Below are positions 2,747-13,820 of a stretch of DNA of 24,000 nucleotides, in pieces; position 1 is the stretch's first letter; every line of letters begins with the position of its first letter. The notes beneath the pieces are model-generated. The model was given only the letters and a program-made list of their open reading frames with translations. It ran no database searches and was not told the origin of the DNA. The stretch is from Candidatus Spongiisociaceae bacterium (GTDB lineage: Bacteria > Actinomycetota > Acidimicrobiia > Spongiisociales > Spongiisociaceae). The translations under genes were made by a program, and so were the position numbers. The stretch is taken from the NCBI GenBank assembly GCA_965219685.1, contig CBDCOH010000002.1, positions 3,381,311 through 3,405,310 on the forward strand, read 5' to 3'.

Positions 2747-2776
2747 TTGGTCAAGTCTGATCTAGTCAGATAAACT
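2747..2776 (+). promoter_or_regulatory. Candidate promoter of the TA operon, giving a leaderless transcript
   Basis: TTGGTC (2747-2752), 18 nt, then TAAACT (2771-2776), which lies 7 nt before the ATG at 2784. There is no SD before that ATG. Inverted arms TCTGA/TCAGA (2756-2760 / 2766-2770) lie in the spacer and could be an operator. Confidence 0.25.
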
Positions 2777-2783
2777 GGCCTGT

Positions 2784-3017
2784 ATGATCGTCAACGTTTA
2801 CGAGGCCAAGACCCATTTCTCCAAGCTCCTCGACCGTGTTCTGAACGGTGAGGAGATCGTGATAGGTCGGGCGGGGAGGCCCGTCGCCCGACTAGTTCCC
2901 TTCGTCGCGAAGCGAACTCCAAGGGTGCCGGGCAGGCTGGCCGGCAAGATCGTCATGGCTGAGGACTTCGACGCGACACCCGGCTGGCTGCTCGACGCTT
3001 TCGAGGGCCGGGAGTGA
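2784..3017 (+). CDS. Type II antitoxin, Phd/YefM family
   Basis: MIVNVYEAKTHFSKLLDRV..GEEIVI.RAGRPVARLVP is the classic Phd/YefM N-terminus. 77 aa. Its stop overlaps the toxin start. Confidence 0.85.
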   Translation: MIVNVYEAKTHFSKLLDRVLNGEEIVIGRAGRPVARLVPFVAKRTPRVPGRLAGKIVMAEDFDATPGWLLDAFEGRE

Positions 3018-3385
3018 ATCTACTGCTGGACACCCACACCGCGTTGTGGTGGTTCAGCAACGAGGGTCTCTTCACAGGAGGGGCGGATGCCATCGCGGAT
3101 CCCAACAACCTCGTTTACGTAAGCGTGGCCAGCATCTGGGAGGTCAGCATCAAGCAGACCATCGGCAAACTCGCCATCAGTGATGAGTTCTACACGTTTG
3201 TCTACGAGGACTTCGAGCCTCTTCATATCACCATCTCAGACGCCCGAGCAGCCGGTGCCCTGCCGCGACACCACCGCGATCCGTTCGACAGGATGCTTGT
3301 CGCGCAGGCTCTTGCGCGCGACCTGACGCTGGTGAGTCGGGATCGGGCGTTGAGCCAGTATGGGGTCAAGTTGATGAGAGCCTGA
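3014..3385 (+). CDS. vapC: Type II toxin, VapC family PIN-domain ribonuclease
   Basis: LLLDTHTALWW (first acidic residue), EVSIKQ, and HHRDPFDRMLVAQA, a PIN motif typical of this VapC subgroup. GTGA overlap with the antitoxin. Confidence 0.85.
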   Translation: MNLLLDTHTALWWFSNEGLFTGGADAIADPNNLVYVSVASIWEVSIKQTIGKLAISDEFYTFVYEDFEPLHITISDARAAGALPRHHRDPFDRMLVAQALARDLTLVSRDRALSQYGVKLMRA

Positions 3386-5447: not shown

Positions 5448-6589
5448 TTATCGGACCCGACTGAGGCCGACCGGTGCGGTCGACAGCACCTCGGGAGCAC
5501 CATCGGTGATAGCGAGCACCTGCTCTGCGCAGTAGATCCCGGTGTCGTCCACGACGGCCGGTTCGATAGTGACCACCATGCCCGGCTGCAATACCGTCTC
5601 GTCGAACTCGGCGATGCTGGGGGGTTCGGTCGCGTCGAGGCCGATGCCGTGACCGAGCCGCCCGAACCCGAGCGAGTCAAGCCCGAGAGAGTCCGACCTG
5701 TCCCGCACGGCCGCCGCGACCTCTCCGACCGCCGCACCGGCGCGGGCCACCTCGATCCCGGCGTTCGTGGCCTCAACCACGGCCTCCTGGAGTTCCGTCT
5801 GCCGGGAGTCGGGGCCTCCGACCACCGCTGCCCGGCAGAAGTCGGACCAGTACCCGTCCACCCGCACACCAACGTCGGACCAGACGAGGTCCCCCTCCCG
5901 GATGACACGGTCGCGCGGAGCGCTGACGAACCGGTCGTACGACCCGGACCCTGACGTTATGGCGATCCAACCCAGGGTGTCAGCCCCCGCACCGATGGCA
6001 GCCCTCGCTATCCGTCGCGCCAGTTCACGCTCGGTGACTCCGGTGAGGGTCCCTGCCAGTACCTGCGCAAACGCTGCACTCGTGGCCTGGGCCGCAGCCC
6101 GTAGGCAGGCTATCTCGTAGGGGGACTTGACGGTCCGCAGCACCAGAGCAAGTCCTGGCCGTCGACCAACCGGAGGCGGTCGACCTGGCGGGCGATGGCA
6201 CCGAAGTCGGCGGGAGTTACTCCCGCCCTCGCCTCCCTACCCAACTCCAAGCCGATGGGGCCGGGCGGAAGGGCACCGATCGCATCGACCACATGCGGCA
6301 CCACGCTCTCGGGCGGTACGTCGTAGCGATGGACCACCGAGTCGGGCCATGCCTCCCCGGCCTCATCGGCGACGAAGGCGGGGAGGCAAAGGTGGAGGGG
6401 GCCGTCCTCCGGAACCACCGCGATCGTCGACCTGGTGGCCGATGACCACATCGGGTCGAACCGTAGACCGGTGAAGTAGACGAAGTTGGCCTGTGTCGAG
6501 ACGACCAGCCCAACCAGGCCGGCATCGGCCATCGCAGATCGGGCTCGCACGACGCGGTCGCGGAACTCGTCGGGGGGTGGTTGCGGCAT
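5448..6589 (-). pseudogene. M24 (creatinase/Xaa-Pro peptidase fold) gene split by a frame change near 6138-6150
   Basis: ORF 6110..6589 encodes a creatinase_N-like domain ending ..RLRLVDGQDLLW. ORF 5448..6143 continues in another frame with (V)LRTVKSPYEIACLR and a complete pita-bread domain. The two ORFs overlap by 34 nt. Confidence 0.7.
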
Positions 6590-6726
6590 CAGGCGACAGA
6601 TGGGGGCACGGCGGCGACTCCCCGCTGGCGGCAGGCCACCAAGAGCCTCCGGTTGATGGAATTGCGCAGGCTCCCATCGACAACCGCCATGGCGATGTCT
6701 CGAAGGAGCGCCCTCTCGTGGGTCAT
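6589..6726 (-). CDS. Hypothetical 45-aa protein, translationally coupled to the M24 gene
   Basis: ATG at 6726 is preceded by AAAGGAA. Its TGA overlaps the M24 ATG by 1 nt (TGATG at 6587-6591). No recognisable family. Confidence 0.25.
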   Translation of the reverse strand: MTHERALLRDIAMAVVDGSLRNSINRRLLVACRQRGVAAVPPSVA

Positions 6727-6921
6727 GCGTTCCTTTTGATCCCAAGTCCGTTCATCCGGAGATCGGACGCGCCGGATTATCGCGTGCGACGCGTCGAACG
6801 TCGACCGGCCCGGGGCCGCCCAACCCCCGAATCGTATACTCCTACACGAGCCGGAGGCCGGGCAAGGCGAGGGCCATGAGCGACGGTTTGCCGGAAGCAA
6901 CCGGAAGGGGAGGAGCGGAAG

Positions 6922-7749: not shown

Positions 7750-8405
7750 GGAGTAGCAGGATCTCGTGATCCTCAGCGTCACCGCGTCGGGCGCCGGTAT
7801 CGGGTTCGGTGACATCAACGATCCGCCCGGGATCGTAGGTGAGGGCCTTGCCGCCGTCCAGGGTCGCCCCGCCGCATAAGAGACCCGGTCACCGTCGGAA
7901 GACCCCCATGGATAGAGCTGCTCTCTAGTCGGCAAACGCCGCTCTCGCAGCCGCCCCGACCTCATCCTCACCGATGCCCTGTAGTATTCTTCAGGCCTAT
8001 AGGGTGGCGAATGTACATGACCTCAAGAGTCTTGCGGCGCGGCCGGGATCCGGCCTACGAAGCCGCGCCTACTCCCCGCGGCGGCCGTCTAAGTTGTAGC
8101 CAAGTCAGCAGCGATCGTGTCGAACCCTCCACGGCAACTCAAGACCCGGTGACGATCGGTCACGGCACGAAGGCAGGCGTCAGCAGCCTCCGGCTCGACT
8201 CTCTCACCGCCGCCAACCTGTCGTCCCCGAACTCACCGGCCTCGGCCGCTTCGAGCGTTCCGGTCCGCGAGGCCTGCGTTCTCGCCGCTCCCCACCCCCG
8301 CAGCCCGAGACCCCAGCGGCCCCTGTGTCACTGGGCTTCTCGCCTTGACGAGAAGGCGCTATCGGTTCATCAGGCTCCTGATTCCAGCCGTGATCGCACT
8401 GTACG

Positions 8406-9317
8406 TTGTCATGCTCCCACTCTGGCGAGGCGGCACGCACGAACACTCTGTCATGTCTGGCCGTCTTGTGGCTGATCCAGAGCCTTTTGCTTCTTCCCTA
8501 TTCGCTGTCGGGCTTGTGGAAGATATGGGACGGTCGTCTTGAATTACTGTCGTCAGACAGTATGGTCAGAATACTATTGAATCGCGCTATAGACGATGCT
8601 AGCAATATAGCGCCGCTCCTACCGCTAATCGCTCGGCATGACCTGCTCGCTCAGTCCATACTCCTGGTTACAGCCTATATAGAAGTGTTCGCACTCTTAG
8701 TGGTCTTCAGACCACATTTGCATAGAGTCTTTGGAGTCATACTGATCATCTTCCATGTCGGAAGTGATTGGCAAATGAACATCTCCTTCTTCAGCAATAT
8801 TCTCATGATCGGCCTCTTCCTAGTGCTGTCTCCGACGGCTCCAACCCGGTTTTCTCTATCTGGCTTGGTACAATCCTTACCCGTGTACGGTATCCCTTTT
8901 CGTGCCTGGGCCCGCCTTCGATCGTCGCGCGACCGCGGTCCCGTGGCCCGGGCTTGGCTCGTCTACGATGGCGAGTGCCCGCTCTGCAGGAATTACACGC
9001 AATACCTCCGGGTGAAGGAGACGGTTGGAGAACTGACACTCGTCGATGCCCGTAAGGGCGGTCCCCTCGTAGATGAGGTTCGTGAATTACCTCATGATCT
9101 CAACGATGGGATGGTTCTGAAGATGCACGGGCGTTACTACATCGGGCATGAGGCGCTGAATGTCCTTGCGTTGGTCTCGGAGAGACGTGGTGGCTTCAGT
9201 AGGGTGAATCGACTCGTATTCAGTTCGCCTCTGGCCGCACGGCTCGGCTATCCCCTGCTGCAGGCAGGACGCTGCCTGCTGCTGAGGGTCAAGGGCGTCC
9301 CACCCATACCGGAGTGA
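8406..9317 (+). CDS. Fusion protein: N-terminal polytopic membrane domain (HTTM-like) + C-terminal DCC-family (DUF393) thiol-disulfide oxidoreductase domain
   Basis: About 5 hydrophobic helices in the first ~170 aa (for example VFGVILIIFHVGSDWQMNISFFSNILMIGLFLVL). These are followed by LVYDGECPLCRNYTQYL, the DCC CxxC motif. The start is uncertain: only TTG candidates exist, and a second TM-like ORF lies in another frame at 8345. Confidence 0.7.
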   Translation: MSCSHSGEAARTNTLSCLAVLWLIQSLLLLPYSLSGLWKIWDGRLELLSSDSMVRILLNRAIDDASNIAPLLPLIARHDLLAQSILLVTAYIEVFALLVVFRPHLHRVFGVILIIFHVGSDWQMNISFFSNILMIGLFLVLSPTAPTRFSLSGLVQSLPVYGIPFRAWARLRSSRDRGPVARAWLVYDGECPLCRNYTQYLRVKETVGELTLVDARKGGPLVDEVRELPHDLNDGMVLKMHGRYYIGHEALNVLALVSERRGGFSRVNRLVFSSPLAARLGYPLLQAGRCLLLRVKGVPPIPE

Positions 9318-9572
9318 GAGAGGATCCTGCCGGCGTAGTTCGTTCGTGAAAGTAACGACAGCGAGTCTTGTATCCGGAGGCGCCTACGTCCCTGTGCCCC
9401 CTCGGGTCAATCCCCGTTAGTCTGTCGTCTAGGCCTCTCTGTCGATGGAGTGACTACCGTACCGGAGGTTAAGCGGCTGCGATTGCGCGGTTGCCCCAGC
9501 GCTCAGGATCGCTCCGACAGCGAATGCCTCCCGCTGTTACAGTCGGACGCGTGCCTACGAGGAGGTGAGGGC

Positions 9573-10811
9573 GTGGGAGACAGCAGGCGCTACAAGGCCT
9601 TCGAGCCCCCCGCCCACGTAGACGCCATCCGCGGAGACCTGCTCCGCCTCACCTTCCCGCTGGAGGAGTACAGGACTCGCTACCGCAGGGTCCAGCGGAT
9701 GATCGGCGACGCGGGCCTCGATTACCTGTTCAGCACCTACCTGCCGCCCGTCTGCTGGATAACGGGATACGAGACCCTCGCCTCCGGGGCACCTGTCGCG
9801 CTGGTGATCCCGGCCGAGGGTGAGCCGACCCTGATGATCGACGACTTCGAGGCTTTCAACACCCTGACGTCGGCTTGGGTGGAGGATGTGGTCACCTTCC
9901 CCTGGGCGGAGAACACCACCGGCGCCTTGATCGACCTGGCCAAGGATCGTGGGTGGGCCGGCAAGCGACTCGGTTGGGATTACAACCGGATGGCGGTTGA
10001 CGTCTTCCAGGCGGTTTCGGACGCGGTCGACGCGGAGTGGGTGCCCACGCGCAACATGCTTGAGGAGGCTCGCTCCCAGAAGAGCCCCGCCGAGATCGAG
10101 CAGATCCGCCGCGCCGGCCGCCTGACGGTGCTCGGCATGGCGGCGGCCCGCGAGTCCATCCGCCCGGGCGTCATCGATACCGACATCGCCAACGCCGCCT
10201 ACGACGCCATCATCGGGGGCGGCAGCGAGCGGATGGGGCTCCAGCCGATCGTGACGGTGGGCAAGCGCTCCGGGATTCCTCACACCACCTTCCGCCGTAT
10301 ACCGATCGAGCCGGGCGAGTCGATCCTCATGGAGTTCGGGGCCTGCATCAACCGCTACACGGCGCCGATGATCCGGGCCGGATTCCTGGGCCAGCCCAAC
10401 AACCCCCTGTGGGTCGAGATGTGGGAGGGGTGCAAGGACGCGGTCGAGAACACCATCCGGCTGATGCGACCCGGCGCCGAGGTCACGCCACTGGCCGAGG
10501 AAGCCTCCGTACGCCTGTTCTCACTCCCGGAAGGGGTGTACGTGGACGGCAACCGCGGTTACTCGATGGGGCTCAGTTTCCCGGCCGGGTGGGGAGACTG
10601 CCCCGGCCTCCAGATCGCCACCGAGCAATTCTTGCCCTCCGCCAGGCCCGCCAGCTACGCCACCCTGAAGGTCGGCCACACGTTCCACGTGCGGGCCATG
10701 GCCCGCCACGTCGGGTTCGCAGGCGTAGGAGTTAGCGAGACGGTGACCGTGACCGAAGACGGCGCCGAGGTGCTCACGTCGAACACCAGGGAACTCGCCG
10801 TCATCGAATGA
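9573..10811 (+). CDS. M24-fold protein (creatinase/ectoine-hydrolase-like), non-canonical metal site
   Basis: Creatinase_N-like N-domain, SQKSPAEIEQIRRAG linker motif and pita-bread C-domain. GTG at 9573 lies 8 nt after GGAGG (9560-9564). The track start at 9450 lacks an SD. Confidence 0.8.
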   Translation: MGDSRRYKAFEPPAHVDAIRGDLLRLTFPLEEYRTRYRRVQRMIGDAGLDYLFSTYLPPVCWITGYETLASGAPVALVIPAEGEPTLMIDDFEAFNTLTSAWVEDVVTFPWAENTTGALIDLAKDRGWAGKRLGWDYNRMAVDVFQAVSDAVDAEWVPTRNMLEEARSQKSPAEIEQIRRAGRLTVLGMAAARESIRPGVIDTDIANAAYDAIIGGGSERMGLQPIVTVGKRSGIPHTTFRRIPIEPGESILMEFGACINRYTAPMIRAGFLGQPNNPLWVEMWEGCKDAVENTIRLMRPGAEVTPLAEEASVRLFSLPEGVYVDGNRGYSMGLSFPAGWGDCPGLQIATEQFLPSARPASYATLKVGHTFHVRAMARHVGFAGVGVSETVTVTEDGAEVLTSNTRELAVIE

Positions 10812-10848: not shown

Positions 10849-11433
10849 GTGACCTCCGACGAGACATCCTCGTCGTCCATGTTCGCCTCGGCTCGGGAAC
10901 GGCGGCTCTGGACGTGGACCTTGGCGGTCGTGGTGGCGATCTACTCGACTCTCGGCCTCGCACGGACCCTGGCCGGAATCCTGCGAGAGGAAGGTCTCCT
11001 CGTAGCCGCCTTCGCCGCCGGCATGGTGCTCGTCGGAGCAACGGTCTTGGTCATGGGGCTGAGGAGTCGGCCGGGGGCCGCAGAAGTTGGCATCGCGCTG
11101 GGTATCGCGGCCGCGTACTTCATGGTGATGGTCCGGATGGCCCTCCCGGAGGAGCGCACCCACCTCATTGAATACGGTGTCGTGGCCGTCTTCATCCACG
11201 AAGCGCTGAAGGAGCGGGCCGGCCAGGGCCGGCGTGTCCCCGTACCCGCGCTGATCGCAGTTGGGGCGGCGTCCGCGGTAGGAACGGTCGACGAGGGCAT
11301 CCAGGCGTTCCTTCCCAGCCGTGTCTTCGACACCGAGGACATCCTGTTCAACGTCCTCGCAGCAACGATGGCAGTCGCCTCGAGCGCGGCGCTGGGCTGG
11401 GCCCGCAGCCGCAGGAGAGTCGGTAGCCGGTAG
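10849..11433 (+). CDS. VanZ-like family membrane protein
   Basis: Four hydrophobic segments and the C-terminal VanZ pattern DEGIQAFLPSRVFDTEDILFNVLAA. GTG at 10849 lies 9 nt after AAGGAG. Confidence 0.7.
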   Translation: MTSDETSSSSMFASARERRLWTWTLAVVVAIYSTLGLARTLAGILREEGLLVAAFAAGMVLVGATVLVMGLRSRPGAAEVGIALGIAAAYFMVMVRMALPEERTHLIEYGVVAVFIHEALKERAGQGRRVPVPALIAVGAASAVGTVDEGIQAFLPSRVFDTEDILFNVLAATMAVASSAALGWARSRRRVGSR

Positions 11434-11801
11434 CAACGGTAGGCCTCCAGGTGTGGTGATCGAACAGCCCGCGAGCGCGAAGAGCGCTCACTGACCGGAG
11501 CCACTGTGCCGCCCGATCACCGGCGAGCAGCCCAAGGCCGGCTGGCAGTATTCCATCAGGAAGGTGGTATCCCCTTCATATATCTACTCGCCGTCCTTCG
11601 CCTCTGATTCCGAAGGAGGTCGGTCAGCCTCGTGCGTGCGGAGTCTCGTCGCTGCGCCGAACTCGGGGCTTGCTGCCCCATCGAACTTCGGGCTCGAGCG
11701 AGTCAAGCCTTGAGAACGTGTCCCAAGCCGATAGCTTCCGAAAACTCTCGTGTGTTCATACAATTGAGCCCAAGCCGCTCGCAGGCAGTCCGGATGCTGA
11801 T

Positions 11802-12212
11802 CTAGATCGGCAGTCGATCCACCTGGTCCTCGGTTACCACAAAGCATTCCTGGGCTTCGTTTTCCCTCCATAACTGCAGTGCTAGGGCCAGAACGTAAGG
11901 ATCCGCCGGGTCGTTCTCTGCGTTCGCTTCGATAACTTCACCGGCCACTGCCATAACTTGCTCAACATATCCGGGGTCAGGTCCGCGCCGTACAATGATG
12001 TCAGGCTCAACTCCGAGAGCCCACGCCTCAGGCAGATCTATGTGGCGTTGACCCCCTACCTCCCGTGCTACCTGTCGCGGGAACGTGATCCTCCCGTTCT
12101 CGACCATCTCCTCCAGGTGTTTGGCGAACCGCCATTGATCCCTGGCCTTGACTACCTGTTTGAACGCAATGATCGAAGAGGTGTCAAGGACGTAGATCGT
12201 GTCATCCAGCAT
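11802..12212 (-). CDS. DUF4411 family (PIN-like nuclease fold) protein, ending at an in-frame TAG; homology appears to continue to 11703
   Basis: N-terminus IYVLDTSSIIAFKQ...WRFAKHLEEMVENGRI and ..DPYVLALA...CFVVTED fit the DUF4411 pattern as I recall it. The ATG directly abuts the upstream stop (TAGATG). Confidence 0.7.
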   Translation of the reverse strand: MLDDTIYVLDTSSIIAFKQVVKARDQWRFAKHLEEMVENGRITFPRQVAREVGGQRHIDLPEAWALGVEPDIIVRRGPDPGYVEQVMAVAGEVIEANAENDPADPYVLALALQLWRENEAQECFVVTEDQVDRLPI

Positions 12213-13346
12213 CTACCCACCGACATCCACCAACTGAGCGATTTCGTCGACTTCGGTGGTGTCAACCCTGAGATAGTCGCTCAGGTCACGCAAGTTGAGA
12301 AGTCCCCGGTCAGCCGCCCGGATCAGCTCGTCGACCACAACGCCGCCGTACTCGTCGATGCGACGCTGAGTCCGATACGTGGGCCGGCCCCTAGCAAAGC
12401 CCTTGTCACGATCCCACGTACGCGCCTTCTGGTCCACTAGGGCGTAGAGGGACCAAGGTGCAACCTGAAGGCGTATCAAGCGGACGGCAGCCGCACGAAT
12501 ACTCACCTTGAACTTGGCAGCAACCTTCTTGGCGACACCGAAACCGTCCTCTCCCGCAGGGATCTGATCCACGAACTGCAGCACGGATTCTCTCGGGAGC
12601 AGGACCGAAGCGGCGAACTGCTCACACCATCGTTCCTCGTCGGCAACGTCGCTAACGAGGTCAACACACGCCGACTCGCTCCGTAAGGTGAGGTGACCGA
12701 GTTCATGGAAGGCTGTGAAAACACGTGCCTCCCGGTTGTAGGCCGTGTTCACAGAAATAACTGGCGCGACCTCGTCCGAGAACGAGAAGCCCCGGATACC
12801 GTCCGGCCCGAGTTGGAGGGTGAACATGAGAATCCCGCGGCCCTCGAGCCTCGCCCGCCACCAGCGCCAAGGATCAACACGCGAGTCCCAGGACATCTGT
12901 AGATCAACGCTCACCCCGAGCCAGCGGCGGACCCGCGTCCCGGCCATCTCCGTATCTTCGTCTCGACCGAGCCGGGGCAGATCGGCCCGGCGACCCTGCT
13001 GCCTAAACAAGAAGGACATCAGCTTCTGCAGTCTGCGGGAGCGCCTCACCCAGAGGCGTTCCCGTTCCGACAGAGCACGGCCTACCTGGCCTGGAGACCC
13101 CCTCAACACTGGGACGCTCAATGGCTCAGGTGCGCGGGGAGCGAAGAACAGAGCGCTAGGCCGCTTCAAAGTCTTGAACAGCCGTGTGAACTCGCCCTGC
13201 GACGGTCTAGAAACACCGTCCATCCAATCCCTCAGCACAACGGCGTCTACCCCTACCCTCCCAGAGACATCCTCCAGCAAAAGGCCGCTCTCTTCGACAG
13301 CCCAGCGGACAACCTCGGCGTTCACAGGCACAAAGGACTTCGCCAT
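12213..13346 (-). CDS. XRE-type HTH domain fused to ImmA/IrrE-family (Peptidase_M78/DUF955) zinc metalloprotease
   Basis: N-terminal VNAEVVRWAVEESGLLLEDVSGRVGVDAVVLRDWMDGVSRPSQGEFTRLFKTLKRPSALFF (HTH). HEXXH motif in TAFHELGHLTL. ATG at 13346 is preceded by GGAGGAAGG. The track start at 13535 is an unsupported extension. Confidence 0.8.
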   Translation of the reverse strand: MAKSFVPVNAEVVRWAVEESGLLLEDVSGRVGVDAVVLRDWMDGVSRPSQGEFTRLFKTLKRPSALFFAPRAPEPLSVPVLRGSPGQVGRALSERERLWVRRSRRLQKLMSFLFRQQGRRADLPRLGRDEDTEMAGTRVRRWLGVSVDLQMSWDSRVDPWRWWRARLEGRGILMFTLQLGPDGIRGFSFSDEVAPVISVNTAYNREARVFTAFHELGHLTLRSESACVDLVSDVADEERWCEQFAASVLLPRESVLQFVDQIPAGEDGFGVAKKVAAKFKVSIRAAAVRLIRLQVAPWSLYALVDQKARTWDRDKGFARGRPTYRTQRRIDEYGGVVVDELIRAADRGLLNLRDLSDYLRVDTTEVDEIAQLVDVGG

Positions 13347-13699
13347 CCACCTTCCTCCACTCAAACCACCATAGCCGCCGGGTGAGACCAGGCCGGCTAG
13401 ACCACTGGCTTTGGAGGGTGGTCGAAAACGGGGTAGCGACGGTCCGTCTTCCTCTGACCAGGCATTATGTAGTCGGTCGATTCCGTGAAGGGGTTTCACA
13501 CCACCCTCCTCGACCGTCCGTGCCAGTGAGGCCACACCAACCTCCCGGCACGGCCCGGCAAGAAGGGCGGCGAGCCAGAACTGTCCAGATCGTCTAGCGC
13601 CGCAGTGGAATCGAGGATCAGGAGACTATCCAGGCGGAAAATGCCATATTGTCCTGGGTTTAGGGCGCTGAGAACCCGTGTGAGACCGTCAGGATCCGG

Positions 13700-13774
13700 T
13701 GGGCCCACCTGGATTTGAACCAGGGACCTCATCCTTATCAGGGATGCGCTCTAACCAACCTGAGCTATGGGCCC
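13700..13774 (-). tRNA. tRNA-Ile (anticodon GAT)
   Basis: Minus-strand sequence GGGCCCATAGCTCAGGTTGGTTAGAGCGCATCCCTGATAAGGATGAGGTCCCTGGTTCAAATCCAGGTGGGCCCA. 7-bp acceptor stem, D stem GCTC/GAGC, anticodon stem CATCC/GGATG with loop CTGATAA, T arm CCTGG-TTCAAAT-CCAGG. CCA is not fully encoded (CCG). A TATTAT box lies 10 nt upstream of the 5' end. Confidence 0.93.
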
Positions 13775-13820
13775 GGAGAGCCAGATAATACACCGCCGCC
13801 GACTCCTTCCGGAAGGCGGG

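What the first reader, a model, noticed from the sequence alone, without database searches (positions are those of the whole stretch)
11703..11804. In-frame TAG truncates the DUF4411 gene; 32 further in-frame codons still look like the family C-terminus
The DUF4411 ORF stops at TAG (11804-11802) after ..VVTEDQVDRLPI. Reading straight on in the same frame gives ISIRTACERLGLNCMNTREFSEAIGLGHVLKA, then TGA at 11705-11703. This resembles the conserved C-terminal block that I recall for DUF4411 proteins (..IPDVC..fGv..i.t.E.l.....). The restored length of 169 aa fits the family. There are three possible explanations. The putative nuclease/toxin may have been inactivated by a nonsense mutation, which is a common fate for toxic effectors. 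A truncated product may be made. Low-level amber readthrough may control the dose of the full-length protein.
Basis: seen in the sequence. Interest (0 to 1): 0.65.

Follow-up and report, generated by a model that had tools for sequence, protein, structure and literature searches.

The report
Nonsense-mutated PIN-like toxin gene (DUF4411)
A single A-to-T change has turned a conserved lysine codon into a stop codon in the nuclease ("toxin") gene of a small mobile toxin-antitoxin/defence gene pair, so this is a freshly broken copy of a known kind of gene rather than a new mechanism.

Summary
The minus-strand ORF 12212..11802 (136 codons) ends at TAG. The same frame continues for 32 codons to TGA at 11705-11703. 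That tail is real family sequence: the Pfam DUF4411 score rises from 31 to 44.8 bits, and the match extends from profile position 121 to 154 of 159. Five relatives (83-95% identical) all carry AAG (Lys) where the window has TAG, with no indels, and all end at the same TGA. Lys137 is nearly invariant in the family.

The gene is the second gene of a compact, low-GC cassette of about 1.8 kb. Its partner is an intact 377-aa HTH + M78/ImmA protease, which is RmrA-like. The cassette lies beside tRNA-Ile and occurs in unrelated contexts in other genomes.

An AlphaFold model (pLDDT 92) shows a PIN fold. The stop removes its last helix-strand-helix unit but leaves the acidic catalytic residues.

The best reading is a recent nonsense mutation that disables the toxin of a Rosmer-like TA/defence module. 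A base-call error cannot be excluded without reads; a second gene in the window is frameshifted. No evidence was found for programmed readthrough. The finding is ordinary and of low interest.

The parts
11802..12212 (-). Truncated DUF4411 (PIN-like) ORF of 136 codons plus the TAG stop. It retains the conserved acidic residues D10, E51, D104, D129 and D132.
   Evidence: Pfam PF14367, 31 bits, above the 23.5 cutoff. Alignment A1 gives the invariant and near-invariant columns.
11802..11804 (-). Premature stop codon TAG at codon 137. The ancestral codon is AAG (Lys), changed by one A-to-T transversion at window position 11804.
   Evidence: All of L001, L003, L004 and L005 and L007 have AAG. K137 is conserved in at least 90% of 35 family members.
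11703..11801 (-). Stranded C-terminal coding segment: codons 138-169 plus the ancestral TGA stop. It encodes the last helix-strand-helix of the PIN-like fold, including the conserved I138 and C144.
   Evidence: It adds 13.8 bits to the DUF4411 match. It is 28/32 identical to the P0002 tail. The AF2 model places H140-147, E150-152 and H154-160 here, with block-mean pLDDT of 91-97. Since the split from L007 there have been only 2 lineage-specific substitutions and no indels.
12213..13346 (-). Intact partner gene of 377 aa: an N-terminal HTH fused to an M78/ImmA-IrrE zinc peptidase with the HELGH motif. It is RmrA-like and is the presumed antitoxin/regulator. Its TAG stop directly abuts the DUF4411 ATG (TAGATG).
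   Evidence: Pfam Peptidase_M78, 1.1e-12. PADLOC RmrA, 9.6e-17, and CapP, 3.8e-16. It is 87-90% identical to the orthologue partners along their full length, and the start at MAKSF is shared.
13347..13410 (-). Conserved 5' leader of the cassette, about 60 nt including a GGAGGAAGG ribosome-binding region. Similarity to the orthologue loci stops upstream of it.
   Evidence: Alignment A5.
11600..11702 (-). 3' flank of the cassette that is still shared with the closest allele L007. Similarity is lost beyond about 11600, which gives the approximate end of the mobile module.
   Evidence: Alignment A4. The GC dip to 56-61% across about 11600-13400, against about 67% in the flanks, agrees.
13698..13774 (-). 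tRNA-Ile(GAT) immediately beside the cassette. This is context only. No att-like repeat was found.

Best explanation
The locus is a two-gene mobile module. An HTH + M78/ImmA-type metallopeptidase (RmrA-like antitoxin/regulator) is followed by a DUF4411 PIN-like nuclease, the presumed toxin/effector. In this genome the nuclease gene has acquired a recent AAG-to-TAG nonsense mutation at the nearly invariant Lys137.

Translation therefore ends after 136 residues. The product keeps the acidic catalytic residues but lacks the last helix-strand-helix of the PIN fold, about 19% of the protein. This most likely destabilises or inactivates it. The partner gene is untouched. The result is a decaying toxin with an orphaned antitoxin, which is the usual way TA/abortive-infection modules are lost.

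Shown: the lesion, its ancestral state, the conservation and predicted structure of the lost segment, the intact partner, and the mobility of the cassette. Inferred: that the protein is a toxin, that truncation abolishes activity, and that the base call is correct.
For: - **HMM and orthologues:** The HMM match runs through the stop. Five relatives carry AAG and end at the same TGA. K137, I138 and C144 are at least 90% conserved.
- **Wider family:** Of the N-terminally complete hits among the top 150 representatives, 107 of 130 include the tail and none ends naturally near position 136. A PDB 'DUF4411 family protein' (9vzy) aligns through the tail.
- **Structure:** The AF2 model has pLDDT 92.3 and the tail is ordered as helix-strand-helix. 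The best structural matches are VapC and Nob1 PIN nucleases.
- **Partner gene:** It is intact, with HELGH retained, and is 87-90% identical to the orthologue partners. It matches RmrA models.
- **TAG as a stop:** TAG terminates the partner gene and other genes at the expected family ends.
- **Related alleles broken independently:** L007 has a +1 nt insertion at about codon 112. L008 has a 1-nt deletion at codon 137. L009 has an IS insertion in the tail and a broken partner.
- **Age of the lesion:** The tail shows no excess decay (0 synonymous and 2 nonsynonymous changes, no indel), so the lesion is young.
- **Literature:** DUF4411.1 proteins are described as potential toxins acting with HTH and DUF955 protease partners (PMC5499597). 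ImmA-type antitoxins pair with diverse toxins, including PIN-like domains, in Rosmer-like systems (PMC10440598; bioRxiv 10.1101/2022.05.11.491447).
Against: - No reads were available, so the T at 11804 may be an assembly or base-call error.
- Loss of function is inferred and not measured. All four or five acidic residues remain upstream of the stop, so residual activity is conceivable.
- Toxicity of this DUF4411 clade has not been demonstrated in anything I could find.
- The substitution counts in the tail are too small to show relaxed selection.
Confidence: 0.58

Rival explanations
1. Assembly or base-call error: the organism really has AAG, the gene is intact, and the TAG exists only in the deposited sequence.
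For: - It is a single-base difference from every relative.
- The tail shows no decay.
- A second gene 6 kb away, an M24 aminopeptidase at 5448..6745, is split by a frameshift. That is what an imperfect long-read consensus would produce.
- The changed base lies between two GATC motifs. From my own knowledge, methylated motifs are a known source of systematic nanopore substitution errors.
- The source is one 4.39-Mb contig. Its relatives come from metagenome assemblies whose contig names look like long-read assemblers, which is an inference.
Against: - Consensus errors in long-read assemblies are mostly homopolymer indels and rarely A-to-T transversions (own knowledge).
- About 20 other genes in the window are full length against their Pfam models.
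- Toxin genes are a class in which real inactivating mutations are common, and three related alleles are also broken in different ways.
Confidence: 0.25
2. The stop is real, but the 136-aa product is still functional. It could be an attenuated nuclease, or a partner-binding decoy that changes how the module is regulated.
For: - The conserved acidic residues D10, E51, D104, D129 and D132 all lie upstream of the stop.
- The truncated protein still passes the Pfam gathering threshold (31 against 23.5 bits).
- The ORF and its translational coupling to the partner gene are unchanged.
Against: - The removed segment is conserved across the family and contains near-invariant residues.
- The segment is predicted to be an ordered part of the fold, including a beta-strand.
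- No family member among the top 150 representatives ends naturally at this point.
Confidence: 0.12
3. Low-level or programmed amber readthrough supplies a small dose of full-length toxin, so the stop is a recoding or dose-control device.
For: - The tail remains open and conserved.
- A distant allele (L008) has its own lesion at exactly the same codon: a 1-nt loss in an A-run, where a -1 slip on A_AAA would restore the normal protein.
- Near-cognate reading of UAG by tRNA-Lys, tRNA-Gln or tRNA-Tyr occurs at a low basal level in bacteria (own knowledge).
Against: - The stop is not conserved, and the five closest relatives all have AAG.
- TAG is an ordinary terminator in this window, including for the partner gene 411 nt upstream.
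- There is no stimulatory RNA structure (z = +0.66) and no Rfam element.
- No suppressor tRNA is present in the window.
- An A-run indel is the most common kind of mutation or sequencing error.
Confidence: 0.03

Closest known systems
[quoted passage not shown] 2017, PMC5499597)
   Same: - The Pfam match is above threshold.
- It is a single-domain protein of about 170 aa with four or five conserved acidic residues.
- It lies directly downstream of a fused HTH + DUF955/M78 protease gene.
- The predicted fold is VapC/Nob1-like PIN.
   Different: This copy is interrupted by a nonsense codon at Lys137. The paper states that most actinobacterial DUF4411.1 genes are monocistronic, whereas this Acidimicrobiia-type clade keeps the protease partner.
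RosmerTA (RmrT/RmrA) anti-phage toxin-antitoxin systems (Millman et al. 2022; Ernits et al. 2023, PMC10440598)
   Same: - The upstream gene matches PADLOC RmrA models (best E = 9.6e-17, covering HTH and peptidase).
- It is a two-gene operon with the genes directly adjacent.
- In relatives it lies in defence-island-like contexts, such as type I R-M, methyltransferases and transposases.
- Ernits et al. note that the ImmA antitoxin node associates with PIN-like domains.
   Different: - The DUF4411 protein matches no PADLOC model, including any RmrT model.
- The characterised RmrT toxins mentioned in the papers I read are of unknown function or are membrane-depolarising, not nucleases.
- No phage-defence test exists for this clade.
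VapBC type II toxin-antitoxin systems (PIN-domain RNase toxins)
   Same: The toxin has a PIN fold with an acidic active site, and the best Foldseek hits are VapC toxins (3h87, 5h4g, 6a7v). The partner is encoded upstream and has a DNA-binding domain.
   Different: The partner is a 377-aa HTH-metallopeptidase and not a small VapB. The sequence matches DUF4411 and not PF01850. A canonical VapC (PF01850) is present elsewhere in the window at 3014..3385.
ImmR/ImmA (ICEBs1) and CapH/CapP (CBASS) HTH repressor + M78 protease switches
   Same: The partner has the M78/ImmA-IrrE peptidase domain with HExxH and an HTH. It matches the PADLOC CapP model at 3.8e-16.
   Different: Here the HTH and the protease are fused in one polypeptide, and the controlled gene is a PIN-like nuclease. 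A damage- or phage-triggered self-cleavage mechanism is only an inference by analogy.

Membership tests
DUF4411 (PF14367) | Sequence match to the family HMM above Pfam's gathering score | tested here: met
   The score is 31.0 bits for the truncated product and 44.8 bits for the restored product, against a cutoff of 23.5.
DUF4411 (PF14367) | An uninterrupted ORF covering the whole domain, including the C-terminal K-I-x(5)-C..LGL block | tested here: not met
   The block is encoded but is separated from the ORF by TAG at codon 137. The window copy is therefore a pseudogene or truncated allele of the family.
PIN domain-like superfamily | Conserved acidic active-site residues on an alpha/beta/alpha PIN fold | tested here: met
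   D10, E51, D104, D129 and D132 are invariant or at least 90% conserved. The AF2 model has pLDDT 92.3. The top Foldseek hits are VapC and Nob1, with probability 0.99-1.0 and best E = 4.7e-4.
PIN domain-like superfamily | Metal-dependent nuclease activity | not testable with these tools
   This needs biochemistry.
RosmerTA | RmrA-type antitoxin (HTH + Zn-peptidase) encoded in the operon | tested here: met
   PADLOC RmrA model PDLC03949 matches at E = 9.6e-17 over residues 73-365, and 14 further RmrA models also match. The HELGH motif is intact.
RosmerTA | Toxin recognised by an RmrT model | tested here: not met
   The 169-aa restored protein matches no PADLOC family at E <= 1.
RosmerTA | Protection against phage, and toxicity neutralised by RmrA | not testable with these tools
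   Experimental work is needed. No paper in the library reports such a test for a DUF4411 pair.
Type II toxin-antitoxin module (generic) | Two adjacent or overlapping co-oriented genes, with the pairing conserved across unrelated genomic contexts | tested here: met
   The junction is TAGATG. The same pair occurs in L001, L003, L004, L005, L008, L009 and an Iamia plasmid, each with different neighbours.

The most novel reading that the evidence does not exclude
Codon 137 marks the boundary between the catalytic core and the C-terminal helix-strand-helix. It might be a recurrent recoding point. The window has an amber codon there, and a 64%-identical allele (L008) has a slippery A-run frameshift at the same codon. 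Under this reading, rare readthrough or slippage would supply a trace of full-length toxin while most product is a harmless core, acting as a built-in dose limiter for a dangerous effector.
Probability: 0.03. Interest if true: 0.6.

Novelty: new member of a known kind. Interest (0 to 1): 0.2.

Why it matters
The result matters mainly for annotation. The 136-aa 'DUF4411 family protein' should be flagged as a pseudogene or truncated allele, and the upstream HTH-M78 gene as an orphaned antitoxin-like regulator.

It also gives a clean natural pair of alleles (TAG against AAG) for testing two questions:
- whether the conserved C-terminal helix-strand-helix of DUF4411 nucleases is needed for activity;
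- whether HTH-M78 + DUF4411 cassettes are bona fide Rosmer-like TA/defence systems.

Broken alleles recur in this clade (nonsense, frameshifts, IS insertion). This is consistent with the effector being costly, which is indirect support for the toxin hypothesis.

Tried and rejected
- **Alternative decoding of TAG.** Rejected. TAG ends the partner gene and several other genes at the expected family termini.
- **RNA element or readthrough stimulator near the stop.** Rfam found only the tRNA. The RNA fold is no better than shuffled sequence (z = +0.66).
- **Promoter or terminator scan of 11400-13800.** Nothing was found.
- **att-like direct repeats linking tRNA-Ile to the far end of the cassette.** None was convincing.
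- **An independent assembly carrying the same 136-aa product, as a test of whether the stop is real.** None is on record. The only cluster-mate is a different, frameshifted allele.
- **A species-level orthologue in genome contigs at a syntenic position.** Only one hit was found, an Acidimicrobiia MAG with a different context.
- **Phage collection.** No DUF4411 relative was found.
- **Relaxed selection in the tail.** Only 2 lineage-specific changes were available, which is too few to test.
- **Contact analysis of the tail in the AF2 model.** This could not be done because the model coordinates are not exposed to scripts.
- **Publication for PDB 9vzy/9vzz.** None was found in the library.

Full report
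**1. Observation**

On the minus strand an ORF starts at ATG 12212. It reads 136 codons ending ...VVTEDQVDRLPI and stops at TAG (11804-11802). The same frame continues for 32 sense codons, ISIRTACERLGLNCMNTREFSEAIGLGHVLKA, to TGA at 11705-11703.

An open run of 32 codons is not remarkable in DNA with about 60% GC. The test is therefore homology. Pfam DUF4411 (PF14367) scores 31.0 bits on the 136-aa product, with the alignment stopping at profile position 121 of 159. With the tail appended (X at the stop) the score is 44.8 bits and the alignment reaches profile position 154. The downstream codons contribute 13.8 bits and complete the domain.

**2. Orthologues**

A protein search found 37 relatives. 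Four of them are 83-85% identical and 169-173 aa long (P0001-P0004). In the 35-sequence alignment A1, the column at the stop is a Lys in at least 90% of members. I138 and C144 in the tail are equally conserved.

I fetched the four orthologue loci and aligned the DNA. All four have AAG where the window has TAG. There are no indels across the tail, and three of the four relatives end at the same TGA (L005, which has a 1-nt deletion near the end, runs four codons further).

The closest allele of all is a 985-bp JGI metagenome contig, L007, about 95% identical in nucleotides. It also has AAG. The lesion is therefore one A-to-T transversion at window position 11804.

A profile search of 1.84 billion representative proteins found 1223 relatives. 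Of the 130 top-150 hits that begin at the N-terminus, 107 match through profile position 150 or beyond, with a median length of 171 aa. None ends naturally near position 136.

**3. What the gene is**

DUF4411 is a PIN-like nuclease family. The alignment shows conserved acidic residues D10, E51, D104, D129 and D132. An AlphaFold2 model of the restored protein is confident (mean pLDDT 92.3, pTM 0.89). Its best PDB matches by Foldseek are VapC toxins and the Nob1 endonuclease. A profile search of PDB sequences finds two recent entries named 'DUF4411 family protein' (9vzy, 9vzz), and the alignment to 9vzy runs through the tail.

In the model the tail forms helix 140-147, strand 150-152 and helix 154-160, with block-mean pLDDT of 91-97. 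From the order of secondary-structure elements I infer that this is the terminal alpha-beta-alpha unit of the PIN sandwich.

**4. The partner and the cassette**

Immediately upstream lies a gene whose TAG stop abuts the DUF4411 ATG (TAGATG). It encodes an HTH fused to an M78/ImmA-IrrE zinc peptidase (Pfam Peptidase_M78, 1.1e-12). The 440-codon ORF listed mechanically is too long. Orthologue partners start at MAKSF, which gives 13346..12213 and 377 aa. It is 87-90% identical to the four orthologue partners over their full length and retains HELGH, so it is intact.

It matches 15 PADLOC RmrA models (best 9.6e-17) and CapP (3.8e-16). It also weakly matches an NCBIfam 'spr1629 family repressor/antitoxin' model, far below that model's cutoff. 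The DUF4411 protein matches no PADLOC model.

The pair sits in a GC trough (56-61% against about 67%) next to tRNA-Ile(GAT). Similarity to other loci begins about 60 nt upstream of the partner's ATG and ends about 100 nt after the TGA. The mobile unit is therefore about 1.8 kb and has no recombinase.

In other genomes the same pair lies beside a type I R-M system (L003), beside transposases and methyltransferases (L001, L004), beside fatty-acid metabolism genes (L005), and on an Iamia plasmid next to an integrase. This is the behaviour of a TA/defence cassette.

The literature agrees. Matelska et al. [quoted passage not shown] Millman et al. describe RosmerTA as a Zn-peptidase antitoxin paired with a toxin of unknown function. 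Ernits et al. note that the ImmA antitoxin node associates with PIN-like domains (PMC10440598). I found no experimental test of a DUF4411 pair.

**5. Which explanation**

(a) A real, recent nonsense mutation that cripples the toxin. This fits the following points:
- The lost segment is conserved and structured.
- The partner is intact. From general knowledge of TA systems, toxin loss is tolerated while antitoxin loss is not; Millman et al. could not obtain a delta-rmrA mutant.
- Related alleles are broken in other ways. L007 has a +1 nt insertion at about codon 112. L008 has lost one A from an A-run at codon 137. L009 has a DDE transposase inserted in the tail and a fragmented partner.
- Since the split from L007, the window lineage has 7 synonymous and 6 nonsynonymous changes in the head. 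The tail has 0 synonymous and 2 nonsynonymous changes (D153N, R168K) and no indel. The lesion is therefore young relative to about 5% nucleotide divergence.

(b) Base-call or assembly error. I cannot exclude it. The window holds a second broken gene. An M24 aminopeptidase is split into a Creatinase_N ORF (6745..6110) and a Peptidase_M24 ORF (6143..5448), which are in different frames. Each aligns to the corresponding half of the intact paralogue at 9450..10811. The other roughly 20 genes look full length. The changed base lies between two GATC motifs.

(c) A functional truncated product. This is possible because the acidic residues are retained. It is not favoured, because the tail is conserved and no natural short forms exist.

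(d) Programmed readthrough. It is not conserved, as all relatives have AAG. TAG is an ordinary stop in this window. There is no RNA structure (z = +0.66) and no Rfam element. The only hint is that L008's independent lesion hits the same codon, which is most simply a coincidence involving a mutable A-run.

**6. Verdict**

The feature is a freshly truncated member of a known, predicted toxin family within a Rosmer-like HTH-M78/PIN cassette. It is useful for annotation and as a natural allele pair for experiments, but it is not surprising. Interest is 0.2.

Noticed in passing
window 5448..6745 (-): An M24 aminopeptidase/creatinase-like gene appears to be split by a frameshift. ORF 6745..6110 carries only Creatinase_N, and the overlapping ORF 6143..5448, in another frame, carries only Peptidase_M24. 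The intact paralogue at 9450..10811 has both domains. The shift lies in about 6137-6150 (TTGCTCTGGTGCTG, possibly GGG reduced to GG). It is either a second pseudogene or an assembly indel.
   Followed up: partly
window 11800..11809 (and 11782..11825): The A-to-T change converts GATCAAGATC into a perfect 10-bp palindrome, GATCTAGATC. This creates CTAG and XbaI (TCTAGA) sites, flanked by two GATC motifs. It lies at the exact centre of a 26-nt-arm quasi-palindrome that is 73% complementary. A template-switch (quasi-palindrome correction) origin, or a methylation-motif base-calling artefact, is conceivable but untested.
   Followed up: no
L007:1-985 (JGI 3300035549), L008:2001-2560, L009:1045-3335: Related DUF4411 alleles are independently broken. 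L007 has a 1-nt insertion at about codon 112. L008 has lost one A from an A5 run exactly at the Lys137 codon, and the -1 frame restores KISIFTACKRLGLGYISMKDFIEAIGWKHVLRA. L009 has a DDE transposase inserted after codon ~152, together with a fragmented partner gene.
   Followed up: partly
window 3014..3385 (+): A canonical VapC-type PIN toxin gene is present (PF01850, 9.1e-15, full length). It probably has a small VapB-like gene just upstream, at about 2750-3010. This is a second, unrelated PIN toxin-antitoxin locus in the same window.
   Followed up: no
window 8000..9320 (+): GC falls sharply to 49-54% at about 8400-9000. The 303-codon ORF 8406..9317 has a DCC1-like thiol-disulfide oxidoreductase domain only in its C-terminal third. 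It overlaps ORF 8011..8475, which has no family match. This may be another foreign insertion or a mis-framed gene.
   Followed up: no
L003:9480-11355: The orthologue locus L003 lies next to a complete type I R-M system (HsdR/S/M). About 1 kb downstream it carries a second, different HTH + Peptidase_M78 gene (393 aa), overlapped by a 234-aa gene with no Pfam match. This may be another Rosmer-like pair with an unknown toxin.
   Followed up: no
window 11600..13410 beside tRNA-Ile 13698..13774: The HTH-M78/DUF4411 cassette is only about 1.8 kb. It has no recombinase and no detectable att repeats, yet it occurs in at least six unrelated contexts. How it moves is unclear.
   Followed up: partly
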